This document shows, in pieces, positions 25,702 to 63,208 of a stretch of DNA of 64,000 bases. The notes beneath the pieces are model-generated. The model did no database searches and had not been told where the DNA came from. It saw nothing but the letters and a program-made list of their open reading frames with translations. Both the position numbers and the translations under genes were made by a program. The stretch is from positions 1-64,000 of the IMG/VR virus record IMGVR_UViG_3300028840_004217; one strand, written 5' to 3'. This DNA comes from a virus. Every line of letters begins with the position of its first letter. The first letter of the stretch is position 1.

Positions 25702-25995
25702 CTACTGTTTGAACACGTCACCTTTCATCAGCGCATCGAACCAACCGTAATCAAGAGCGAACTGCTTGGCCTCCGCGAATCCGCCGGTCCAGGCGGTGTG
25801 AAGTAACCGGCCCTTGAATGTACTGACGGTCCAGGTAGGTCGTTCGCGATATCCGGTGGACCCCGCGCTTATGAACCCCACCTGTACGTCGTTGAGGAAC
25901 ACACCGTACTGACCGTACTTGCGTCTGACGGATGCTCTGTCACCGAATTCGACGTCCGCTTTGCGGACCTTCTTGATCGTCGTCGTGACTCTCAT
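25702..25995 (-). CDS. hypothetical protein
   Basis: ATGA-coupled to the HNH gene. Confidence 0.55.
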   Translation of the reverse strand: MRVTTTIKKVRKADVEFGDRASVRRKYGQYGVFLNDVQVGFISAGSTGYRERPTWTVSTFKGRLLHTAWTGGFAEAKQFALDYGWFDALMKGDVFKQ

Positions 25996-26447
25996 TTCGC
26001 CACCGCCTTCGCTGCTGAGCCGCGCCGGGCGATCAACTCTTTTGCTTCGTCCTTCGGGAGCGGCCTGTTGGTGAATTCCTCGATGTCGTTCAGGATCATC
26101 TCGGCTGTCACGCCGTGGTTGATGTAACCGGCCACCGCTTCCGCGAATTCTTCGACTGTGCGGTGCTTGCGGCTGCTGTTGCACTTGCTGCAACACGTGA
26201 CCAGGTTATGCTGGTGGTTCGAGCCGCCCGCCGAGTGGCAGATGATGTGATCGAGACTGAGCTGTGCTCCGTCCTCGACACCGGAACCGCAATAGACGCA
26301 ACTGAGGCCGTCGCGAAGATAGATGCTCAACCGCTTCTCCTGTCGTATCCAGTTCATACCCTGGTATACGCCTCTGGAGCGGCTGTCGCGTTTTTTGGTG
26401 ACCATCGTGGTCTGTCGGTTCGTGAAGTTGTAGGTCGTCGTTGTCAT
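25992..26447 (-). CDS. HNH endonuclease
   Basis: RDGLSCVYCG...LDHII...GGSN...NLVTCCSKCNSSRK. Confidence 0.9.
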   Translation of the reverse strand: MTTTTYNFTNRQTTMVTKKRDSRSRGVYQGMNWIRQEKRLSIYLRDGLSCVYCGSGVEDGAQLSLDHIICHSAGGSNHQHNLVTCCSKCNSSRKHRTVEEFAEAVAGYINHGVTAEMILNDIEEFTNRPLPKDEAKELIARRGSAAKAVAK

Positions 26448-36388: not shown

Positions 36389-37182
36389 TGCCTGCGACCC
36401 TGACGGGTATCAAGCCCCGTTTCCTCTATGACACGTCGGTGTTCGACGGAGCCACGGTGACGACCAACAGCGACACCACGGACCTGCCGGCGACCAACCT
36501 TCAAAACGCCATCGTGCGGCGACCCTGGCGCACCGCAGGCACGACGCAGATGGCGTGGGCCGTCTACGACCTCGGCACGGCCACCGCCGTCGACATGATC
36601 GCCGTGTTCGGCCACAACCTGACCAGCGTGGCCCTCCTGACGATACAGGGGAACGCATCTGACAGCTGGGGGTCGCCCTCGCTCAACGTGGGCCTCACCA
36701 TACCGGCCAACGCGGACAGCGTGCTGTTCGAGAAGGCCGTGTCCTTCGCCACCGGCACGTACCGGTACTGGCGGCTGGCTGTCCAGGGTGCGAATGACGG
36801 TACCTATTGGGAGGTGGGCCGCCTGATGGCAGGCCAGTACTTCGAGCCTACCGTACCGCAAGACCTGCGGGCACAGCGCAGCATAGAGGACCCGTCGATC
36901 ACGGACCGCGCCGACGGGATGCAGACCTACAGCCGAGAGGTGGACCAGTTCTACGTGTACCGCATCAACCAGACCAACCTGTCCCAGGGGGACCGCGACT
37001 CGTGGCTGGCCATGTTTCAGAACAGGGGGACACGCCTCCCCATGGCGATCGCGTTCGACCCGACCAATGACCATAGATTCAACAGGGACACGATATACGG
37101 TAAGATAGCAAGCCCGTTGAAGGAAAGCCTCATACAACTCGAATACGGCACCCTACGAATGAATTTCGCGGAGCAATGGTAA
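36388..37182 (+). CDS. putative distal tail / tail-associated protein
   Basis: Follows the tape measure gene; YDLG...GHNL...YRYWRL...EVGRL discoidin-like motif. Confidence 0.6.
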   Translation: MPATLTGIKPRFLYDTSVFDGATVTTNSDTTDLPATNLQNAIVRRPWRTAGTTQMAWAVYDLGTATAVDMIAVFGHNLTSVALLTIQGNASDSWGSPSLNVGLTIPANADSVLFEKAVSFATGTYRYWRLAVQGANDGTYWEVGRLMAGQYFEPTVPQDLRAQRSIEDPSITDRADGMQTYSREVDQFYVYRINQTNLSQGDRDSWLAMFQNRGTRLPMAIAFDPTNDHRFNRDTIYGKIASPLKESLIQLEYGTLRMNFAEQW

Positions 37183-46625: not shown

Positions 46626-47945
46626 ATAGCCACGCGTCCGTTTCTGCTGTAGCGATAGGAAAGCGTGGCCGCAATCCTACCTTCCGTCCTCCCCCTCCTC
46701 GAACTTGCGCGACTTCACGATCTCAGCGATGGCCCGTTCATCCGCCTTGGACCGCCACGCCAGATAGGTCTGCTCGTCCGACAGGTGTTCCCGCAGTTGC
46801 TTGATGGCGCTGGCCTGGCCCTCCCGTATGTTGCGCGCCTCCTTGCTCTCGGCAGACCGCACCATCCGCTTGTATTGCTCCTCCAGCTCGGACAGATACC
46901 GCATGAAATGATTCCAGCTCGCGTAATAGTGCATCAGTGTTTTCCTCCCGTCAGCCGGTCCCACTGTCTGTGGAACGCGGGTTCCCAACGCTTCTTGGTC
47001 ATGACCGTGAATACGAGCAGCACCGCCAGGGCCGACAGCTTCAGCGGATGCGTCTGGTAGGCGGGGAAGCCGTAGTAGGCCGACGCCCCGCACATGGCCC
47101 CTATGATTATACACTTGATGAAGTACAACATCAAAGCCTCCGTATGTGGGACATGGCGTTCTCGACCGTCAGGATGGTGAAATCCTGGAGGCCGCTGTGC
47201 TTGCACATGTCTATGATCTGATCGTCCGGTACACCGGCGGTCATCATCTCCTCGACGGCCTCCAGCAGACCGGGCATGTTGTTCTGCAAGGTCTCATAGC
47301 TGATCCGCTCGACCTGCTCGGTCAGCGTGGGGTTCAGGATGGGCTCCGTCATGACGCCTCCTCTTTGAGGGGTACCAGGTGCGGGTAGTGCGTGATCAGG
47401 TGGCGCAGCAAGCCCTCGGCCTCCTCGCGGCTCAGCCGGTTGATCTTGAGGGCCACGTCGGTCGCCGTCCGCTTCTCGAACATGAACGTATTGGCCAGGT
47501 TGTACGCGCCCTCTATGTCCTCCAGCCAGGCCATGTAGTCCTGGTGCTCGGCGTGCTGTTGCTCGAAGGCCCGCTCGGACGCCTTCTCATTCTCCCAATG
47601 TTCGAGGATGACGTCCGCGAATCGGTCGGCCGTCTGCGCCAGCGACTCCTTCTTGCGTTCCCGGTACTGCTTGCGACTGCCGTAGTTGCCTATGGTCAGG
47701 TGGGCCGTGTTCTCATATTGGGTGCGCCAGCCCGTGCCCCGGTTGATCGGCTTGAACTCGGTCCACACCAACGTGCCGTCGATGCGGTCGACGCGGAGGG
47801 GGCTGCGCTCCACCTCATGGCCGTGTGCCTGGAGGACGTGAACCACCATGTCGACCACGCCCTTGACATAGGACCGTGCGGCGGCGTTGTTCGCGTCGCG
47901 TTCCTTCTGATCATAGATTGTCATGATGCTCTCCTCGTGCTTGGT

Positions 47946-48505: not shown

Positions 48506-48809
48506 GATTTGGTTCTCCTTGTGTCTGCTGCGTTGATTAAAGGGCTCTGAGCGTGTCGATGAAAACTTTGTGAAACAGCGGATAATTCTGGCCGGGCCGC
48601 AGTTCGTCAGCGTTGAACTCTTTCCACTTGGCTATGGCCACCTGCTTGTCGTCTGTGAAATAATAGTCGTTCCAGGCTTTGTTGTACACCGCGTACTCGG
48701 TGGTTTCTGTTTCCCGGTTGTGTGACTCGGGGCTGTAGTGAATCGTGAGTTCCTGGCGTGTCATCTGTCTGCTCCTTGTGTCGTGTGGTTTCCTCTTTGT
48801 TCTATATAC

Positions 48810-50667: not shown

Positions 50668-52023
50668 CAGCTTCCTCCTTGGGGTGAAAGGCGGCGTATT
50701 TCTCGTCGTACATCTCGTCGCCTATGATGTACACGCCCCACGGGTTCCACAGTACGTACTGCGGCAACTCCTTCTCCGTGGGTGCGTGGGACGCCGTGGC
50801 ATACCTGTCGAACTGCTGGAACATGTCGGTGTCGTCCTCCAGCCGCCACTCGCCCCGCGTGTATTTCGTGCCGGGCGTCCACAGCCTGTGGGCTTTGGGC
50901 GTACCCGTCACCTGAAGGTCCACCTGAACGATCCGGTCACCGGCGCGACGGTAGAACTCTACGGTCGACTTGTGGCCGTAGTCCAGGCGGTAGATGAACG
51001 GCTCGATCTGCTGAACGAACTTCTCGCGCCAGTGCTTTTTCTTCATGCCCGTGATCGGCACGAAGGAGAGGAACGTGCCCCGCACCCTGACCATCGGGAT
51101 CGGGTCGCTTTCGTGGACGATCGCCTTGGCCTCCTCGGGATCGTGCACCTGGAATTGTACGGTGGCGTCAGCGTGGCTGGTGTGCATGAACCCCGACGGG
51201 ATGTTGGCGTCCGCGAGGTCGGGCATCGCCGCTTTCAGTTCCTCGATCAACGCCAGGGCCGCGACGAACTTCTCACGGTCCCTGGCCTGCCGTCTGTCGA
51301 ACTCCTCGATTGTCGTGATGGTCATGTGGCCTCCTCAGGAAAGCATCAGCTTCGTGCCGTGGGCGTACCGGGCGATGTCGATGATGCCCGGCGCGAACTG
51401 TACGAGGTCACCGTCGTCGGTCGTCCAGATGACCCCCTTGTAATCCTCTGTGAACGTCGGAAACAGCGTGCCCTTCTCTATGCGTTGAAGGGCGTCACCC
51501 AGGTTGTTGATCGTGACGGTCGCCATGTCGTACTCTCCTTGTGTTTAGTACACCGTGATTTTGACGGTCGGGGCTTTGACTTTCGCCAGCCTGCTCGTCG
51601 TGACTGCCGGTACGGGTGACGTGCCGAACACGTAGGCGCAGCCACCGTCGATGAACACGTTGTTGATGACGCCCGCGTCACCCTCGAAGATCCGCTTGGC
51701 CACGTCGTACATCGCGTGGGCTATGCGGCGTGCCCGGCGCAGGTCGCGGAACGTCAGCTTCATCGTGACCCGGTGCTGGTGCTCTGCCGTGGGCGGTGTG
51801 TGACGCAGGTGCTCTACGCGGTCCTTCTCGAAATCCTGAACCGTGACCACCGCTGTGGGATCCTCGGACCAGATTTCGTCGGCGAACTCGCGGACGGCTT
51901 TCATGCTGTTGTGAAGCTGGCCTGCTTCGATCTGGCGTGTGCCTGATGTGTAAGTCGTTGTCGTTTCGTACCGGGCCATGATGCTCTCCTTGTGAGTGGT
52001 CGCTTTCCTCTCTGTCTATATAC

Positions 52024-56266: not shown

Positions 56267-57223
56267 TCATAGGACGTTCCTTTCCACTCTGTCGGCCCGC
56301 GCCTCGTCGTCGGGATCGGGTTTCAGGCCGAGTTCTATGAACCAGTCGCAGGTGGACCCGCTGTGCTCCGTCAGGAACCGGGCCACCGCCTCCAGCTTGC
56401 GGGCCTCATGCTCGAACGTCACGCGTGCCCGTTCCAGGTGCTCCTCGTTGTGCTTGACGTCGGACGCGCAACCGGCCACCTTGTCCTTCTGCTGGTAGGC
56501 CGCCTCCTGCATGACCAGGATGACGTTCTCCTCCACCAGAGCCAGCCCCGTGATCTCGTCCTTCGGATCCTCCGCCTGTTGAGACACGACGGCCACCTCA
56601 CCCGTACCCGAACACACTGAGCAGTGTACGTCACCGCCGCCGATGATACCCGTCCCCCCGCACTCCGGACACTCCGTTGTTTTCATGATGGGCACTTCTC
56701 CTTTCCCTTGACATTGACAACACTCGTCGGCGCCCGTACCGTCACAGGCCGGGCATTTGATGAACTCCAGGATGCTGGCCACGCCCTTCGAGCTGGCCCA
56801 CGGTATCACGCCGCGCCCGCCGCACCAGGTACAGGCCGTCTGCCCGACCTTCCCGCCTTCATGCCCGCAGGCGGGACACGGGATGGTCTGTCCGCAGCCG
56901 TTGCAGACGTAACACCTTTCGTCCGGCTCCTCCTCATCGGTACTCCCCTTCAGTATGCCCTCACCCCGGCATTTGTAGCACGCCGTCGTCTTGCCGGGAT
57001 CGAGGACGACGGGTACGCACCCCAGGCCGCGACAGAACGGACACAGGGTATCCAGGGGCGTGGCTTTCGTCGTGCGGCCCATGCCCTCACACGGCGTACA
57101 GAAAACCAGCCCGCCCTTGCCCCCGCATTTGTAGCAGACCTGCGGCGCGCCGTCGTCATCGACCTGGCCCGTACCGTCACAGTTATTGCAGACCTCGGGT
57201 ATAGGCAACGTACTGCTGCACAT
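56267..57223 (-). CDS. protein with 12 DnaJ-type CxxCxGxG zinc-finger repeats
   Basis: CNNCDGTG, CYKCGGKG, CTPCEGMG, CPFCRGLG ... CSVCSGTG; no J domain (no HPD). Confidence 0.8.
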   Translation of the reverse strand: MCSSTLPIPEVCNNCDGTGQVDDDGAPQVCYKCGGKGGLVFCTPCEGMGRTTKATPLDTLCPFCRGLGCVPVVLDPGKTTACYKCRGEGILKGSTDEEEPDERCYVCNGCGQTIPCPACGHEGGKVGQTACTWCGGRGVIPWASSKGVASILEFIKCPACDGTGADECCQCQGKGEVPIMKTTECPECGGTGIIGGGDVHCSVCSGTGEVAVVSQQAEDPKDEITGLALVEENVILVMQEAAYQQKDKVAGCASDVKHNEEHLERARVTFEHEARKLEAVARFLTEHSGSTCDWFIELGLKPDPDDEARADRVERNVL

Positions 57224-57409: not shown

Positions 57410-58528
57410 TCACGAAACCCTCCCCATGCAGGCGTCATTGAAATACTTCAGGTCGTCATAGGCCAGTGGGTATTTCTCTCCGTAGTGCGCGTCCGTCATC
57501 GAGTTGATGATGAACTTGATGTCGCGCACCGACCCTATGAGGCGGCACATCGACCACGGGATGATCAGGCGGTCCGTCCGCGTGTCCTCGCCGTGCATGC
57601 CCTGTATGCCGAGCGTGGTGTGCTCGAACTGCAACGCGCTGTCGTGATCGAGGGGTACGTGCACCCACCGCACCCACTGGTCTTTGGGAGCCTCCAGGAT
57701 CGGAAGGGGGCTGGCCCGCTTGTTCCAGATCGGATCGACCATGAACACGGTATGCAGGCACCGGTTCATCTGCTGGAGCAGTTCGAGGTACAGCATCTTG
57801 TGCGGCTCGAACAGGAATGACTTCGCCGGACAGCCGGGGTTGACGCGCTTGGTCTCGAAGAACTCGACCCTGCCGTTCACGATGGCCACGCCGTCCACGT
57901 CGGCGGGCCACCCGCAGTACCACGGGTGGAGGACGTGATACACGAACAGCCTGTTGTGTATCAGGCTTTCACGCTCCGCGTCGTCCAGCTTGGTCAGCAC
58001 CGTTTCGAGGGCGGTAATACGCTGGTCCTCGGTGCGGTCCTTCTCCTCATGCTGTCGGGCGCCCTCCCACGGGCGCACCAGGGGCCGGTGATCTCTGGTC
58101 AGCCTGTAGGTCGTCAGAAGCTGGTCGATGGGCATTTTGTCCTCCCACCCTCCGTTCTGGTACAGGCGGCCTGTGAAGTCCTTCCGCTTCGCGTCGTACT
58201 GCGCGGCTACGACGACCTGGTTGTACTGTGACAGGGTGCGGGCCACGTGGGAATCGACCTGCATACGCCACGGCTCCGTCTTGGTGACGACGCGGAACCA
58301 GTACCGGGGCGGGCCGTCCTTCTCGTCGGGCATGTAATACCAGTTCGACGATACCAGGGACCCGTCGCCCACGGCGACGGCCAGGGACCGCAGGAACACG
58401 TCCTCGAATAGGAATGATTCGAGTCGCCGGCAGTTCTCATGCTGGAGCAGCTTGCGGGCGTCGTAGTGGCTGGCCGGGTCGAACTTGCCGTCCCTGAACT
58501 CCTGTATCACGTCACGCAGGGTATTCAT
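57410..58528 (-). CDS. putative PD-(D/E)XK nuclease-like protein
   Basis: WPADVDGVAIVNGRVEFFETKR fits the D...ExK core; GGAGG RBS. Confidence 0.5.
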   Translation of the reverse strand: MNTLRDVIQEFRDGKFDPASHYDARKLLQHENCRRLESFLFEDVFLRSLAVAVGDGSLVSSNWYYMPDEKDGPPRYWFRVVTKTEPWRMQVDSHVARTLSQYNQVVVAAQYDAKRKDFTGRLYQNGGWEDKMPIDQLLTTYRLTRDHRPLVRPWEGARQHEEKDRTEDQRITALETVLTKLDDAERESLIHNRLFVYHVLHPWYCGWPADVDGVAIVNGRVEFFETKRVNPGCPAKSFLFEPHKMLYLELLQQMNRCLHTVFMVDPIWNKRASPLPILEAPKDQWVRWVHVPLDHDSALQFEHTTLGIQGMHGEDTRTDRLIIPWSMCRLIGSVRDIKFIINSMTDAHYGEKYPLAYDDLKYFNDACMGRVS

Positions 58529-58537
58529 CAGTCCTCC

Positions 58538-58708
58538 TGTGGTTTGGTTTGGCTCGCATCACTTTACTCCGCGGAACGCTGCGACGGTGCGCGTTGGTCT
58601 GCGTGGAATGTGCTTGGCATTGCGCCGCTCCGGTCCGCCGTGCTTCGGTAGACATGGCAGGGTAGGGCAGTGGTACGCGACGCGTGAGTTGACATTGGTT
58701 TGCTCCGA
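58538..58708 (-). repeat. 5-nt periodic array E (34 pentamers, one 1-nt slip)
   Basis: + strand tgtgg tttgg tttgg ctcgc...; NNYGS register. Confidence 0.8.
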
Positions 58709-58712
58709 ATGA

Positions 58713-59000
58713 TCATCTGGTGATCGCTTTTCTCAACATCGCCATCTCGACTTCGAGCAGAATGACCTTTTCTACGAGTTTCGTTATACCCGACACCCGC
58801 ATCGGTTCTCCCGGCTTCAACTCGTATTCATCTATGAAAGCATTGATCGCTCGGTAGGCGTCGGCCTCCGTGGGTTGCGTCGGACCGGACAGGACATCGA
58901 GGGCCTTGCCGGTACCGACTGTCACCGCGCCCGTGAGCAGGTTCTTCAGAAAGGCCCGGCGTTCGGTGATGTCTTCATCGGTGAACATGATCTTGCGCAT
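58713..59000 (-). CDS. hypothetical protein between arrays
   Basis: GAGG RBS, MRKIMFTDED...; the ORF-track extension to 59204 is array sequence. Confidence 0.6.
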   Translation of the reverse strand: MRKIMFTDEDITERRAFLKNLLTGAVTVGTGKALDVLSGPTQPTEADAYRAINAFIDEYELKPGEPMRVSGITKLVEKVILLEVEMAMLRKAITR

Positions 59001-59010
59001 TGTAGATACC

Positions 59011-59136
59011 TCTGCTGTGGTTCGGTCAGCCCTGGAAAGGTCATGGTTGGCCTTGGTTTGGCACGCTATACAACGGGATGGTGCGCGAAACAGTGAAACG
59101 CTCCGGTTGGCTTCGGGTAGGTATGGCGTGCCGTGA
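59011..59136 (-). repeat. 5-nt periodic array D2 (25 pentamers)
   Basis: tctgc tgtgg ttcgg tcagc cctgg aaagg t catgg ttggc cttgg... Confidence 0.8.
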
Positions 59137-59167
59137 ACGCTGTATGTTGTCCTCCGTTCCTCCGATG

Positions 59168-59337
59168 TCCGCTTCGCTTGGGATTGCTCCGCTTTGGCGT
59201 GCAAAGCGCCGCAGCACTGCGCGAGGCCGAGGCTTGGTTATCTGCGCGTTGCCGGGGGCAGCTCTGATGTGCTCAGGTGCGCGTGGTTTCACTTTGGCGT
59301 GGACAGCTCCGCAAGGCAAAGGGGAGCGGAGGTACGT
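59168..59337 (-). repeat. 5-nt periodic array D1 (34 pentamers)
   Basis: tccgc ttcgc ttggg attgc tccgc tttgg cgtgc... in unbroken register, starting right after the stop codon of the Cas7-like gene. Confidence 0.8.
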
Positions 59338-59339
59338 TG

Positions 59340-59897
59340 TCATTTGCCCGGCTTCAGTATCACCGGCTCCCACCCCACGACGAGGAAACGACCGAAGGAG
59401 CCTTTCTTGGCGGGCCGGTATGCGCCGACACCCACCAGGCGGCCTGAGTCGTCGACCACCTTCTTCAACTGCTGCTCAGTGATCAGCTCGTCGTCGTACT
59501 CTACCTGGAATTTCAAACGCCACTCGTCGAAGCGCGGCCTGTAGCACCAGACCCTGCCGCCGCCTATGAACTTGTTGACGACGGTGCGCTCGTCGATGGC
59601 ATACTCGGTGACGCCCAGGAACAGCTTCTCGGGCGTGATGAAGATGCAGGCCGCGGCGATCTTGGCGAGGGTGGCGCGGCCCTTGCCCTTGCTGTAGGCC
59701 CCGCCGTCGATCACGCACCGCTTCACGTTCTCTGCGGGCACGTACAGCTCCTGCGTGTCCTCGTCGCGGTAGGCGGCGTGTTCGGCCTGTTCGTCTTTGG
59801 GCAGTTTGTCGAAGTTCTCGATGGGCTGTGAGGGAAAAGCGTGCATCAGCAACCCTGGCGGCAATCCTCTGATTTCAACATCGACTTTCGCTATCAT
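59340..59897 (-). CDS. solo Cas7/RAMP-like RNA-binding protein
   Basis: N-terminal strand VEIRGLPPGLLMH, LYVPAENVKRC (cf. RAMP YIPxxxxKG), RPRFDEW, C-terminal Gly-rich loop GRLVGVGAYRPAKKGSFGRF. Confidence 0.75.
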   Translation of the reverse strand: MIAKVDVEIRGLPPGLLMHAFPSQPIENFDKLPKDEQAEHAAYRDEDTQELYVPAENVKRCVIDGGAYSKGKGRATLAKIAAACIFITPEKLFLGVTEYAIDERTVVNKFIGGGRVWCYRPRFDEWRLKFQVEYDDELITEQQLKKVVDDSGRLVGVGAYRPAKKGSFGRFLVVGWEPVILKPGK

Positions 59898-59910
59898 GGT
59901 GCGGTACCTC

Positions 59911-60040
59911 CTGGCGGTGGTTCGGTTTGGTGTGATCTGCGTTGCGCAGGATCACAGGGGTTGGCAGAACAAAGGTACGTCTGGCTTTGCTGTACATTGG
60001 TTTGCGTTGCCGTTGATCGCGACGGCAGGCCGCGCTGTGA
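59911..60040 (-). repeat. 5-nt periodic array C (26 pentamers)
   Basis: ctggc ggtgg ttcgg tttgg tgtga tctgc gttgc...; ends at the RBS of the Cas7-like gene. Confidence 0.8.
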
Positions 60041-60081
60041 TCGTATGATTTATGTCATGTGGTCGCTCCCCCCTCTCGGAC

Positions 60082-60402
60082 TGTGCTTTGGCAGGCGTCG
60101 GTCGGGCCAGCGTAGGCTTGCAGCGACATGGCCTGGAACGCTTTGACGTGCTCGGCAATACTCTGCTTGGATACGCAATGATTGAGTTGGCAATGAAAGG
60201 CTTCGCTCGGCTTCGCTGATCGTGGCCTTGCCGTGGCACGCCACGCAATGCGATGCGTCTGCCGTGGCACGCGACGCTTTGGTTCTCTATGCACTGGTAT
60301 GGCGTACTCCGCTGTGGCTGTCGTTGGGACGCTTTGCTTTGCAGGTCTATGAATAGGTTGGCACTGCTGCGTTTCGGGGTGCAGCGCATTGTTACGCTAC
60401 GC
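60082..60402 (-). repeat. 5-nt periodic array B (35+29 pentamers, 1-nt slip at 60257)
   Basis: G at pentamer position 4 in 32 of the first 35 units (manual count). Confidence 0.85.
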
Positions 60403-60858
60403 ATCGTAATCCTCATGATCTTCAAGGTCTCCGAGAACCCGGCGACGCTGTTCACGGAGAATCCAGCCCTTCAACGACAGACCCTCCGGTATGGCACCCG
60501 TCGCTTTCAGCGCGTCGTATTCCTGTATCGTTTCCTTCCGGTGTATATCGGCCCACGAATCGACCGTGTGGTCCTTCGGTATCTCGCCGGCACGCTGCGC
60601 CGCCAGAAAACTCACGAAGGTGCGGACCCGGTTCGACACCTGTTCTACGGACAGGCCGGGCGGCAGGCACGTCTGCGCGCACATGTAGCCGACTTCATCA
60701 TCCGCCTGAAACCGGGTCCAGCCGCTTTCCACGTTCGGGTCGCTCTGTTGCTCCCGCCCGCAGACGCCGCACCGCATCATCTCACCGGAGAACAGGCCGG
60801 TGGAGAAGGTGGGTTTCGATTTCCGTTTCTTCTTTTTCCTGCGTTTCGGCTTGATCAC
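60397..60858 (-). CDS. hypothetical protein (basic N terminus, CxxC) between arrays
   Basis: GGGAG RBS plus GTG; KPKRRKKKKRK...CGVCG...CAQTC. Confidence 0.6.
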   Translation of the reverse strand: MIKPKRRKKKKRKSKPTFSTGLFSGEMMRCGVCGREQQSDPNVESGWTRFQADDEVGYMCAQTCLPPGLSVEQVSNRVRTFVSFLAAQRAGEIPKDHTVDSWADIHRKETIQEYDALKATGAIPEGLSLKGWILREQRRRVLGDLEDHEDYDA

Positions 60859-60877
60859 TATGTACTCCCGTCTGAAC

Positions 60878-61012
60878 TGTGGTTTGCAGTACTCGGCTTT
60901 ACCTCGCATATCAAGACGTCGGATCGCCAAACACCGCCCTGCTATGGCCTGCTTTGCTCGGGTTCGCCATGCTGCTCTATGCTACGCAAAGCGTCACCGC
61001 GCTATGCCCCGC
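60878..61012 (-). repeat. 5-nt periodic array A (27 pentamers)
   Basis: Minus strand gcggg gcata gcgcg gtgac gcttt gcgta gcata ... gcaaa ccaca; exactly 135 nt in register. Confidence 0.85.
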
Positions 61013-61284
61013 AAAAGTTCACCTGGGCTGGCCTCGACCAGCATCACTGTAATCACAAGTCAATAACTTCATCCTGGGGTGTCAGGTCCTCCAGCACCAC
61101 GTCGGGCGGCTGGCTGTATACCCCCTCACCCGCCGTCAGCTTCCACAGGGTGTCCTCGAAGGTCACATAGACACTTCGATTGTTGTTCACCTGGAGGGCA
61201 TTGAACACCTTGCCGCATACCTGGTGAAAGTTCTTCTTGGCGGCTTCGAGCGCGTTCAGCATTTCAAAATACTCTTTGGCGAGT

Positions 61285-62736
61285 TCAGGAGTCAGCATCA
61301 GCCGTTGCCTCCGTGAACGGGTCGATCCTGCCGCCCGCGATCTCACGCCACCCTATGTTCTCCTTCACCGCCGCCTGTACCGTGTCATACAGCCACGACA
61401 GGATCGAATGACGATGTGCGCCCCAGAAGGCGGCCCTGTTCTTCTGGCCCTCCTCCAGACACGCCTGGCATACGCCCAACCTATGGTGGTCGGGCCGGTC
61501 GGGGTTGTCGTCCGGAAACGACAGCAAGCCCACGGACGGATCCCCGCAGCCGGTGCAGGGGCGCGTGATGATGAACTCGTACACCCTCGCCGTCAGGTCG
61601 CCTTCATAGGGTATGTCCTGAAAGGTGATGGCCTGCGCGGGTCGCGCCGGTTCCTGCTCGTCCTCACCGTCGGGTGACGTGACGTGGCTGAAGATGACGC
61701 CCGGTTCAATCTCCTCGGCCAGGGGCACGCCCTCCAGGGAGAACTGCGCGATGGCCCCGGCGACCTCCGTTCGGTATTCCTCCGGTATGCCGTGGTCCTT
61801 GTATTTCACCAGCGCATCCTTGGCCACTTCGAGGGACCGGATGAGGTGGTCCACCTGTGCGTCACGCCCACCCACCTTGTCGGCCTGCTTCGGGTCGGTG
61901 ATCGGGTCGGGTGCGCCGAGCAGCCTGTGGCGGTTCCGTACGGACGTCCAGGTGCGGGAGAACCCCGCCGCCTCCAGGTTGTCCAGGAGGCCCAGGGCGT
62001 CGTTCCACGTGCCGAAGTCGTTGGCGAAGTCCACGGCCTGATACAGACTCTGGCGGTGGAGCTGCGCGTCGGCGGCGAACTGGTTGACCACGTTGTCACC
62101 GTAGGCCCCCAGGCGTCCGCCGTCCTTCCGGTACTCCAGGAGGACGGAACCGACCATCCAGTATCCTTCGACCAGCATTTCCTGTCCGTTGCGTATGCGG
62201 CGCACACCGTCGCGACACCGTTTGCACATCTCGGCCCACGCTTCTGTTTCCGTCAGTTTGGGCAGCAGTTGATCAGGAGTCGTCACTTTTTCTTTCCTTT
62301 CTGAGCGCGGCCGTTCCAGTTCTATCGTTTCAATGATCTGCTCGGTCCCTCCGGTTTGACCGAGTTTACCTTCACAGAATTGATACTTCTTGGCTTTATA
62401 TCTACCGTCGATCTGCACGCTGCCTTGTCCCAGGCCGTACCGTTTACCGGTGACGCCGCAGCGTTTACACCGCATCTTGTCATAGCCGCCGGCCTCCGTG
62501 ACCAGCGACGTTTTTTCCCACTCATGCGGTGTCTCGTCAGCCCCGCTGTACAGAACGATCTTGAGGGGCTTGCGTCTGTTCTCCCCTGGCCGCAGGGTTT
62601 GGTTAAAATGACTGAACATCGTCATGGCGTCCGTCGTGGCGGATTCCTGACTCGTCACCTGCATCTCCTCCTCGACGGGTGTTCCTATCGGCTTGTTGTC
62701 GTCATCAAGTTTGGTGTACGTCACCACCGCTTTCAT
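61285..62736 (-). CDS. multidomain hypothetical protein with a DUF1016-N-like HTH region and zinc fingers
   Basis: YWMVG...YGDNVVNQFAAD...SLYQAVDFA; CKRCG; CTGCG...CQAC. Confidence 0.5.
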   Translation of the reverse strand: MKAVVTYTKLDDDNKPIGTPVEEEMQVTSQESATTDAMTMFSHFNQTLRPGENRRKPLKIVLYSGADETPHEWEKTSLVTEAGGYDKMRCKRCGVTGKRYGLGQGSVQIDGRYKAKKYQFCEGKLGQTGGTEQIIETIELERPRSERKEKVTTPDQLLPKLTETEAWAEMCKRCRDGVRRIRNGQEMLVEGYWMVGSVLLEYRKDGGRLGAYGDNVVNQFAADAQLHRQSLYQAVDFANDFGTWNDALGLLDNLEAAGFSRTWTSVRNRHRLLGAPDPITDPKQADKVGGRDAQVDHLIRSLEVAKDALVKYKDHGIPEEYRTEVAGAIAQFSLEGVPLAEEIEPGVIFSHVTSPDGEDEQEPARPAQAITFQDIPYEGDLTARVYEFIITRPCTGCGDPSVGLLSFPDDNPDRPDHHRLGVCQACLEEGQKNRAAFWGAHRHSILSWLYDTVQAAVKENIGWREIAGGRIDPFTEATADADS

Positions 62737-63208
62737 CAGTGACTCCTCTCGATTCTATCAGGCGTATTGTGTTCATGATGATCGCGGCCAGTTGGTCATC
62801 TATCTCAAATCGCTCGAAACACTTCTCTGCCGACTTGAGGATATTCCCGTTGCGGTTGCGCAGGGCGGCGGCGCACCAGTCGCAGACCATCTCGGTCACG
62901 TCGATCAACGTCATGTCCCACACGCCGTTTTCAAAGTGCTCCGGATGATGACGCGAGTGTGCGTTGTGATGATCGATGGCGGGCCGTATGCTGGCAAGCT
63001 GTGCCCGGTATTCGGGTGAGCCGTACTCCGTGCCCTTCATCAGAGGCGTCACCCTGGCGAACGCGGACATCTCGGGTTCGAGCAGCTTGGTCGCGTCATG
63101 CGTTTCACCGCGCACGATCAGGTGGGCGATGACGTGGTTCAGCCGCTTCTGCACTTCGCGGACGTGCTGCAGGGTCTCGAAATGCACGGCCTTCTGTTCT
63201 TCAGTCAT
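62705..63208 (-). CDS. DUF5662 (HD-like) protein
   Basis: HVREV...HDATKL...HHNAHSRHHPEHF...EMVCDW. Confidence 0.8.
   Translation of the reverse strand: MTEEQKAVHFETLQHVREVQKRLNHVIAHLIVRGETHDATKLLEPEMSAFARVTPLMKGTEYGSPEYRAQLASIRPAIDHHNAHSRHHPEHFENGVWDMTLIDVTEMVCDWCAAALRNRNGNILKSAEKCFERFEIDDQLAAIIMNTIRLIESRGVTDESGGDVHQT

What the first reader, a model, noticed from the sequence alone, without database searches (positions are those of the whole stretch)
58528..60882. Array units share a conserved 3' tail (CCRAA-CCACA then GGAG), even where no gene follows
Seen on the minus strand, the unit ends read: A gcaaa ccaca gttcagacgggag; B ccaaa gcaca gtccgagagggggag; C ccgaa ccacc gccaggagg; D2 ccgaa ccaca gcagagg; E ccaaa ccaaa ccaca ggagg; D1 gcgaa gcgga catcggaggaacggagga. 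After B only a 2-codon ORF follows (ATG ACA TAA, 60050-60058), and after D1 there is no start codon. Inference: the tail is part of the RNA unit (processing site, capping handle or ribosome-protected end). It gives the arrays polarity on the gene strand and defines roughly 125-175-nt individual guides. Protein coating next to an RBS could also autoregulate the downstream genes.
Basis: partly seen in the sequence, partly recalled or inferred. Interest (0 to 1): 0.75.

Follow-up and report, generated by a model that had tools for sequence, protein, structure and literature searches.

The report
Constant ends of phage VIPR guides
The shared "tail" is real: it is the fixed last two repeats of the guide-RNA arrays of a VIPR system (a CRISPR-related phage silencing system described in 2026), and it runs straight into the ordinary ribosome-binding site of the next gene, so this is a new example of a known kind.

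Summary
Observation confirmed for five of six units. RAASCACMG occurs 9 times in the window, and 5 of these sit at the 3' ends of arrays A, B, C, D2 and E. D1 fits only weakly.

The locus is a VIPR system (bioRxiv 10.64898/2026.04.26.720920). The 185-aa gene matches the SUSP1 Vipr protein (PDB 36pp, E=1e-10). The spacers are 5-nt-periodic NNN(G/C)C arrays on the gene strand, which is the published YNNNG repeat variant.

Published vrRNAs have a repeat tract followed by an invariable 3' tail. Here the tail is two in-phase repeats with fixed "variable" bases. It parallels the AAGGC-AAGGC-ARGGA ends of 60 arrays in 29 homologous loci. It is unstructured, unlike the SUSP1 pseudoknot.

The GGAG is best read as the next gene's ribosome-binding site:
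- In homologs an SD follows 21 of 24 unit ends before a gene, but 3 of 15 before another array.
- AA(C/G)CAC-RGGAGG leaders also precede at least 5 array-free genes of this phage.

The orphan SDs after B and D1 look like duplication or gene-loss relics. No RNA data exist, so the RNA ends are untested.

This scan has already noted VIPR loci in at least 144 other genomes. Verdict: new member of a known kind.

The parts
59340..59897 (-). vipr gene (185 aa), a lone RAMP/Cas7-like protein
   Evidence: phmmer against PDB 36pp_D 'SUSP1 Vipr protein' gives E=1.3e-10; the profile gives 7e-11. AF2 model pLDDT 87. Top Foldseek hits are Csm3/Cas7. 234 homologs found. The G-loop reads GVG-A159-Y160-R161-P, where SUSP1 has D177-W178-R179 and 28/29 homologs have D-F-R.
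60871..61045 (-). array A: 35 pentamers in one phase, starting 7 nt after the stop of the 81-aa gene
   Evidence: Segmentation. GC periodicity score 9.7 against a genome 99.9th percentile of 8.7.
60877..60885 (-). tail A (AAACC ACAG). The SD GGGAG is at 60865-60869 and the GTG start of the 153-aa gene at 60856-60858
60065..60390 (-). array B: 27 + 37 pentamers with one 1-nt slip, and an internal tail-like CAGCC ACAGC GGAGT at 60306-60320
60081..60089 (-). tail B (AAAGC ACAG). An orphan SD GGGGGGAG is at 60066-60073 and the 2-codon ORF ATG ACA TAA at 60050-60058
   Evidence: The tail is 9/10 identical to tail A.
59909..60058 (-). array C: 30 pentamers, in phase with B across the mini-ORF, with an internal AAACC AATGT at 59994-60003
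59915..59923 (-). tail C (GAACC ACCG). The SD AGGAGG is at 59907-59912 and the vipr ATG at 59895-59897
59141..59335 (-). array D1: 39 pentamers in one phase
59150..59177 (-). D1 end: GCGAAGCGGA, a weak tail match, then the doubled SD-like GGAGGAACGGAGGA (59150-59163) with no start codon
59014..59134 (-). array D2: 18 + 5 pentamers, mostly ending in CC, with weak GC periodicity
59015..59023 (-). tail D2 (GAACC ACAG). The SD AGAGG is at 59009-59013 and the ATG of the 95-aa gene at 58998-59000
58536..58706 (-). array E: 17 + 16 pentamers, with AAACC AATGT near its 5' end at 58692-58701
58537..58550 (-). tail E (AAACC AAACC ACAG). The SD AGGAGG is at 58533-58538 and the ATG of the 372-aa gene at 58526-58528

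Best explanation
The stretch is a VIPR locus. A Vipr protein gene (59340-59897, minus strand) and four neighbouring genes are separated by guide-RNA (vrRNA) arrays. The arrays fill each intergenic space, from 4-7 nt after a stop codon to the next ribosome-binding site.

The arrays are pentamer repeats NNN(G/C)C on the gene strand. This is the YNNNG variant of the published YNNGG repeat.

They stay in phase, but their normally variable bases are fixed: RAA-SC, then ACM-GY. This is the local, minimal form of the constant 3' tail that closes published vrRNAs. Inferred: it is the constant, non-targeting end where the Vipr filament stops or is capped.

The GGAG that follows is not part of the guide. 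It is the Shine-Dalgarno site of the next gene, sitting in the CA-rich, unstructured kind of leader that this phage uses at many genes.

The SD-like runs after B (with a 2-codon ORF) and after D1 (no start codon) are most simply leftovers. They could come from duplication of a unit together with its RBS, or from gene loss.

The last repeat lies 4-12 nt from the SD, so Vipr bound to the leader could hinder ribosome binding. This is inferred and not shown.
For: Identity of the system:
- Vipr homology and RAMP fold.
- Published description of vrRNAs as a repeat tract plus an invariable 3' tail that caps the filament, and of the alternative NNNGG/YNNNG/NNNNG repeats.
- 5-nt GC periodicity occurs only at 58.5-61.05 kb of the 92-kb genome, apart from one marginal segment at 36582-36685 (score 6.2).
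- Over 224 in-phase pentamers, position 4 is G/C in 90% and position 5 is C/T in 90%.

Polarity:
- 29 distinct homologous loci carry NNGGY arrays on the vipr coding strand.

Tail:
- Five RAASCACMG sites lie at array 3' ends, in phase with the arrays.
- In homologs the last two repeats have NN = AA or AG in 60-65% of cases, against 14% in the interior. They are often followed by ARGGA. This holds whether a gene or another array follows: 25/43 and 11/17.

SD belongs to the gene:
- In homologs an SD follows 21/24 unit ends before a gene and 3/15 before an array.
- 19 of 114 other genes of this phage have CACA next to the SD.
- Five array-free genes have AA[CG]CAC-RGGAGG.
- The tails fold no better than shuffles, with z from -0.06 to +2.2.

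Duplication relics:
- Tails A and B are 9/10 identical and have similar downstream purine runs.
- L002 and L013 repeat the vipr-type tail plus SD at gene-less units.
Against: - There is no RNA evidence at all, so the RNA ends, the strand in vivo and processing are unknown.
- The motif overlaps the phage's generic CA-rich leader, so sequence alone cannot separate 'terminal repeat' from 'leader'.
- D1 does not carry the second pentamer. Phase evidence is weak for D2 and ambiguous for B.
- RAACC pentamers also occur inside arrays: 5 of 11 are not at ends.
- The link to the AAGGC-AAGGC-ARGGA ends of homologs is an analogy between loci whose Vipr is only 44-57% identical. No close relative exists to test conservation.
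- No target was found, so I could not show that the tail repeats are excluded from guide-target matching.
Confidence: 0.6

Rival explanations
1. The whole motif, RAASC-ACAG plus GGAG, is only this phage's usual translation-initiation leader: a CA-rich, unstructured stretch before a strong SD. It has no role in the guide RNA, and it looks array-specific only because four genes in a row are preceded by arrays.
For: AA[CG]CAC(A)-RGGAGG precedes genes at 64711, 90065, 90304, 90886 and 91381, where no 5-nt periodicity exists. (A)ACACAAGGAG precedes more than 10 further genes. AASCACA is strongly concentrated just upstream of start codons: 9 of 36 genome-wide copies. The tails are unstructured, as open ribosome-binding regions are.
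Against: The first pentamer is in phase with the array at A, C and E. Tail B has the motif although only a 2-codon ORF follows. Homologous loci have a unit-intrinsic constant end whatever follows. Tail-like AAACC AATGT occurs inside C and at the 5' end of E with no SD.
Confidence: 0.25
2. One reading: tail plus GGAG is one functional module of every RNA unit. It would be a processing site, or a ribosome- or 30S-bound end that protects or delimits the guide, present even where no gene follows.
For: B and D1 carry strong SD-like runs with no real ORF. L002 (two units) and L013 (two units) also end gene-less units with ACAGGAGG or AAGGAGG. SD-like 5' stabilisers without an ORF are known in Bacillus (cryIIIA STAB-SD; from my own knowledge, not checked here).
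Against: In homologs 12 of 15 gene-less unit ends lack any SD-like run. The L002 and L013 cases repeat the vipr leader almost letter for letter, as duplication would produce. D1 lacks the ACAG pentamer. Type II tails (Felixounavirus phage heid, L033) have no SD.
Confidence: 0.1
3. The shared ends are only recent paralogy. Units arose by copying one another, and the tail similarity is inherited with no function of its own.
For: There is weak collinear similarity between spacers, for example 59048-59080 with 60223-60255 (76%) and 59091-59115 with 60191-60215 (80%). Tails A and B are 9/10 identical.
Against: Away from the tails the units are almost unalignable, while the 9-nt core is kept in five units. 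An analogous constant end exists across distant homologs.
Confidence: 0.05

Closest known systems
vrRNA 3' tail of type II VIPR systems (Escherichia phage SUSP1 and Pseudomonas fulva prophage; bioRxiv 10.64898/2026.04.26.720920, 10.64898/2026.04.26.720927 and 10.64898/2026.10.15.759431)
   Same: A constant sequence lies directly 3' of the pentamer-repeat tract, on the vipr strand, and is shared by the units of one locus. The papers hold it to cap the filament and to be needed for Vipr complex formation.
   Different: The published tail is about 40 nt and folds into a hairpin/pseudoknot. I saw it in the SUSP1-like phage heid, where it lies ~70 nt from the vipr SD. Here the constant part is 9-10 nt, unstructured, in phase with the repeats, and 4-12 nt from the next gene's SD.
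Terminal repeats of arrays in homologous Vipr loci (29 distinct IMG/VR contigs, L002-L032)
   Same: The arrays are on the vipr strand. The last 2-3 repeats carry fixed AA or AG dinucleotides. The array ends 13-53 nt before the vipr ATG in 16 loci.
   Different: The homologs use canonical NNGG(C/T), and their Vipr keeps Asp at the G1-reading position. This phage uses NNN(G/C)C with Ala159. Its fixed repeats read RAASC ACAGY instead of AAGGC ARGGA.
Repeat-derived handles of CRISPR crRNAs (class 1)
   Same: A constant part flanks a variable guide bound by a Cas7-type backbone. Vipr folds like Csm3/Cas7.
   Different: There is no repeat-spacer array, no Cas6 and no other cas genes. The guide is gapped, with a 5-nt period.
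Shine-Dalgarno site with a CA-rich unstructured leader
   Same: GGAG/AGGAGG lies 5-8 nt before the start codons of the genes after A, C, D2 and E, preceded by ACA/CACA as at 19 other genes of this phage.
   Different: After B only 2 codons follow. After D1 there is no start codon.

Membership tests
VIPR system (Vipr + vrRNA) | Vipr protein: a small single-RRM RAMP with G-loop and thumb, homologous to SUSP1 Vipr | tested here: met
   phmmer E=1.3e-10 and profile E=7e-11 against PDB 36pp_D. AF2 pLDDT 87. Best folds are Csm3/Cas7. R120, Y160 and R161 align with SUSP1 R138, W178 and R179. D177 is replaced by A159.
VIPR system (Vipr + vrRNA) | Long intergenic tracts flanking vipr, made of at least 4 tandem pentamers YNNGG or a related consensus (NNNGG, YNNNG, NNNNG), on the vipr strand | tested here: met
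   224 in-phase pentamers NNN(G/C)(C/T) in five spacers. The periodicity is unique in the 92-kb genome apart from one marginal segment at 36582-36685. The YNNNG variant is named in the paper's methods. Strand is inferred from homologs.
VIPR system (Vipr + vrRNA) | Invariable 3' tail after each repeat tract | tested here: inconclusive
   A 9-nt core is shared by 5 units. It is short, overlaps the generic leader of the phage, and its presence in the mature RNA is unknown.
VIPR system (Vipr + vrRNA) | vrRNAs of about 100 nt are expressed and co-purify with Vipr | not testable with these tools
   No RNA run was listed for this DNA.
VIPR system (Vipr + vrRNA) | Guides match targets by the 2-of-3 (1-nt skip) code | tested here: inconclusive
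   No match above shuffled guides in the phage's own genome or in held loci. Four exact-window scans of IMG/VR gave only chance hits. Imperfect targets could not be searched.
VIPR system (Vipr + vrRNA) | Accessory vap gene next to vipr | tested here: inconclusive
   The neighbours (81, 153, 95 and 372 aa) have no Pfam or PHROG function and no counterpart in the homologous loci.
VIPR system (Vipr + vrRNA) | Encoded by a virus or provirus | tested here: met
   92,049-bp virus record with 144-bp direct terminal repeats. Tail and lysis genes are in the window.
Type II (SUSP1-clade) vrRNA tail | ~40-nt structured tail with hairpin/pseudoknot | tested here: not met
   66-nt windows around the six tails fold no better than shuffles: z = +1.1, +0.9, +0.8, -0.1, +2.2, +0.5. 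No Rfam or tRNA-like match.
Shine-Dalgarno translation start | Purine-rich GGAG-type run 4-12 nt before a start codon of a real ORF | tested here: met
   Met for A, C, D2 and E. For B only a 2-codon ORF follows. For D1 there is no start codon.

The most novel reading that the evidence does not exclude
In this VIPR clade the guide RNA has no structured cap. The Vipr filament ends on two fixed in-phase repeats that directly abut the ribosome-binding site of vipr and of each neighbouring gene. Filament assembly on the polycistronic RNA would then compete with ribosomes and set the expression of the whole locus (autoregulation). The orphan SDs after B and D1 would serve as ribosome-bound marks that delimit or stabilise the next unit.
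Probability: 0.2. Interest if true: 0.6.

Novelty: new member of a known kind. Interest (0 to 1): 0.35.

Why it matters
How vrRNA ends are made, and what the tail does, are not settled in the VIPR preprints outside the SUSP1 clade. This locus shows a minimal, unstructured tail built from the repeats themselves and fused to ribosome-binding sites. That suggests a simple way to end a filament and a possible feedback on vipr expression.

The same locus also offers a natural test of the recognition code. The Asp that reads the first G of GGY in SUSP1 Vipr is Ala here, the only such case among 120 homologs. Matching this, the first G is no longer kept in the repeats.

Tried and rejected
- RNA evidence: no RNA holder listed.
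The contexts of more than 200 metagenomic homologs could not be read.
- Close relatives of this Vipr: none in IMG/VR or JGI metagenomes with the single protein. blastn of the locus against the phage collection found no match.
- Structure in the tails or arrays: none beyond shuffles, except a modest z of -2.2 for array C. Rfam gave nothing at the gathering threshold, and only a chance-level snoRNA hit at E <= 1. ARAGORN found nothing. A tRNA-like or ribozyme tail is therefore rejected.
- Promoter/terminator scan: two weak promoter-like sites and no useful terminator. A promoter reading of the tail was rejected because the conserved part has no -35/-10 partner and lies inside the leaders of known promoters elsewhere.
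- Targets: gapped-code scans of the phage's own genome and all held loci, with skip 0-2, were no better than shuffled guides. Contiguous-trimer blast was not significant. Four IMG/VR pattern scans gave 38, 1, 0 and 0 hits, all at chance level on extension.
- Reading the variable trimers as codons: in-frame stops number 3 against 9.3 +/- 2.4 expected. This is only a weak hint, and TA avoidance may contribute.
- Neighbour genes as conserved vap: no tblastn hit in homologous loci.
Full report
**What is there.**
The window is the first 64 kb of a 92,049-bp virus record with 144-bp terminal repeats. Between 58.5 and 61.05 kb, five minus-strand genes are separated by long spacers that are rich in A and C and poor in T:
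- an 81-aa gene
- a 153-aa gene
- a 185-aa gene at 59340-59897
- a 95-aa gene
- a 372-aa gene

So is the 2-codon ORF at 60050-60058, and there is no start codon after D1.

**The spacers are 5-nt-periodic arrays.**
- Distances between GC dinucleotides pile up at 5, 10, 15 ... 40 nt.
- A genome-wide scan finds this periodicity only in these five spacers, apart from one marginal segment at 36582-36685 (score 6.2).
- Dynamic segmentation shows runs of 16-39 pentamers without a phase slip. They start 4-7 nt after the upstream stop codon and run to the next ribosome-binding site.
- Over 224 in-phase pentamers, position 4 is G (60%) or C (30%) and position 5 is C (79%) or T (11%). Positions 1-3 vary and are A-rich.

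**The system is known.**
- A profile of the 185-aa protein and 29 homologs hits PDB 36pp 'SUSP1 Vipr protein' at E=7e-11. The single sequence gives E=1.3e-10.
- The AF2 model (pLDDT 87) resembles Csm3/Cas7 most closely.
- VIPR systems were described in 2026 preprints. A lone RAMP protein, Vipr, polymerises on vrRNAs made of YNNGG pentamers. GGY is held by the protein and NN reads the target with a 1-nt skip. The repeat tract is followed by an invariable 3' tail, which is a capping pseudoknot in the SUSP1 clade.
- The discovery paper's methods name variant repeats NNNGG, YNNNG and NNNNG. NNNGC here is the YNNNG form.

**Homologous loci and polarity.**
- 29 distinct IMG/VR loci with 38-53% identical Vipr mostly carry canonical NNGG(C/T) arrays directly upstream and downstream of vipr, on its coding strand.
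- The Asp that reads the first G in SUSP1 Vipr (D177) is Asp or Glu in every homolog whose G-loop could be matched. It is Ala159 here, the only such case among 120. This fits the loss of that G in the repeats.

**The tail.**
- Anchored on the last repeats, units A, B, C, D2 and E share RAASC-ACMG(Y). D1 shares only GAAGC.
- RAASCACMG occurs 9 times in the window against 4.8 expected. Five of these sit at the array 3' ends.
- The first tail pentamer is in phase with the array. 27 of 44 upstream GC dinucleotides are in phase against 20% expected. The signal is strong for A, C, E and D1, and poor for D2.
- The tail is therefore two ordinary repeats whose variable positions are fixed.
- Homologs show the same principle. 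The last two repeats have NN = AA or AG in 60-65% of 60 arrays, against 14% in the interior, and are often followed by ARGGA. This holds whether a gene (25/43) or another array (11/17) follows.
- The tails are not structured: z from -0.06 to +2.2 against shuffles. They have no Rfam or tRNA-like match. This differs from the ~40-nt hairpin tail I read in the SUSP1-like phage heid.

**The GGAG.**
- For A, C, D2 and E it lies 5-8 nt before a start codon.
- In this phage 19 of 114 other genes have CACA within 10 nt 5' of the SD, typically (A)ACACAAGGAG.
- Five genes far from any array have AA[CG]CAC-RGGAGG.
- In the homologous loci an SD-like run follows 21 of 24 unit ends when a gene follows, but only 3 of 15 when another array follows.
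- The exceptions, L002 and L013, repeat the vipr leader almost letter for letter, as segmental duplication would produce.
- The SD therefore belongs to the gene. The orphan SDs after B (whose tail is 9/10 identical to A's) and after D1 are best read as relics. A role as ribosome-bound marks cannot be excluded.

**Mechanism, with shown and inferred steps.**
- Shown: the identity of the Vipr protein, the arrays and their phase, the fixed terminal repeats, and their position next to ribosome-binding sites.
- Inferred from the published structures: Vipr protomers bind one repeat each, and the constant repeats mark the 3' end of the filament.
- Inferred only: Vipr bound up to 4-12 nt from the SD may lower translation of vipr and its neighbours. 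The same close spacing, 13-53 nt from the last GGY to the vipr ATG, holds in 16 homologous loci.

**Limits.**
- No RNA run holds this DNA.
- No close relative exists in the collections.
- No target was found in the phage's own genome, in held loci, or in four exact-window scans of IMG/VR. I could not test whether the tail repeats are excluded from targeting.

**Novelty.**
VIPR and the existence of a vrRNA tail are in print. This scan already holds notes on VIPR loci in at least 144 genomes, some with tRNA-like or hairpin tails. This locus is a new, divergent member: YNNNG repeats, Ala159, genes interleaved with arrays, and a minimal unstructured tail fused to ribosome-binding sites.

Noticed in passing
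window 59419-59433 (codons 156-160 of vipr) and all arrays 58536-61045: The Vipr G-loop reads GVG-A159-Y160-R161-P. The Asp that H-bonds the first G of GGY in SUSP1 Vipr (D177) is Ala here. This is unique among 120 homologs, and the repeats have lost that G (A .38, C .22, T .23, G .17 at that position).
   Followed up: partly
arrays A, B, C, D2a and E (window 58536-61045, minus strand): When the three variable bases of successive pentamers are read as codons, seven of nine phase runs have no in-frame stop: 3 stops in 224 against 9.3 +/- 2.4 expected. This is a weak hint that the guides copy coding sequence and that the third variable base may be read too.
   Followed up: partly
window 60229-60241 and 60260-60272 (minus strand): A 13-nt direct repeat, GCGTGCCACGGCA, occurs twice in array B, 31 nt apart, around the single 1-nt phase slip. 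It may be an internal duplication or a unit boundary.
   Followed up: no
window 59994-60003 and 58692-58701 (minus strand): AAACC AATGT, close to tail A's AAACC ACAGT, occurs inside array C and 11 nt after the stop codon at the 5' end of array E, with no SD. It may mark further unit ends or a 5' element.
   Followed up: partly
window 59934-59953 (minus strand): A hairpin, GATCCTGCG-CAA-CGCAGATC, lies just upstream of tail C and the vipr RBS. Array C as a whole folds better than shuffles (z = -2.2).
   Followed up: no
window 16712-17254, 47349-47924; genome 71938-72246: The leader GGCATAGC(A/G)CAACCAA(A/G)CAC precedes the SD of three dispersed genes. It probably lies next to the four-way-junction RNAs noted earlier in this genome.
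   Followed up: no
window 25992-26447, 48537-48764, 51545-51979; genome 90875-91183: TGTATATAGA(C/A)A(G/A)AGAGGAAA recurs upstream of first genes of minus-strand cassettes. It is an extended -10 plus a shared leader, and the leader ends in ACACAAGGAG.
   Followed up: no
L002 4696-4969 and L013 4902-5851: In two homologous loci, gene-less vrRNA units end with near-exact copies of the vipr leader including the SD. L013 has an identical ~30-nt stretch ending in AAGGAGGC, followed by an ATG. This is evidence that arrays grow by duplicating a unit together with its leader.
   Followed up: partly
window 56267-57223 and 62705-63208 (minus strand): The flanking genes are a 318-aa protein with a DnaJ-type CXXCXGXG zinc-finger domain (PF00684, 2.5e-13) and a DUF5662 protein (1e-31). 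Any link to the VIPR locus is unknown.
   Followed up: no
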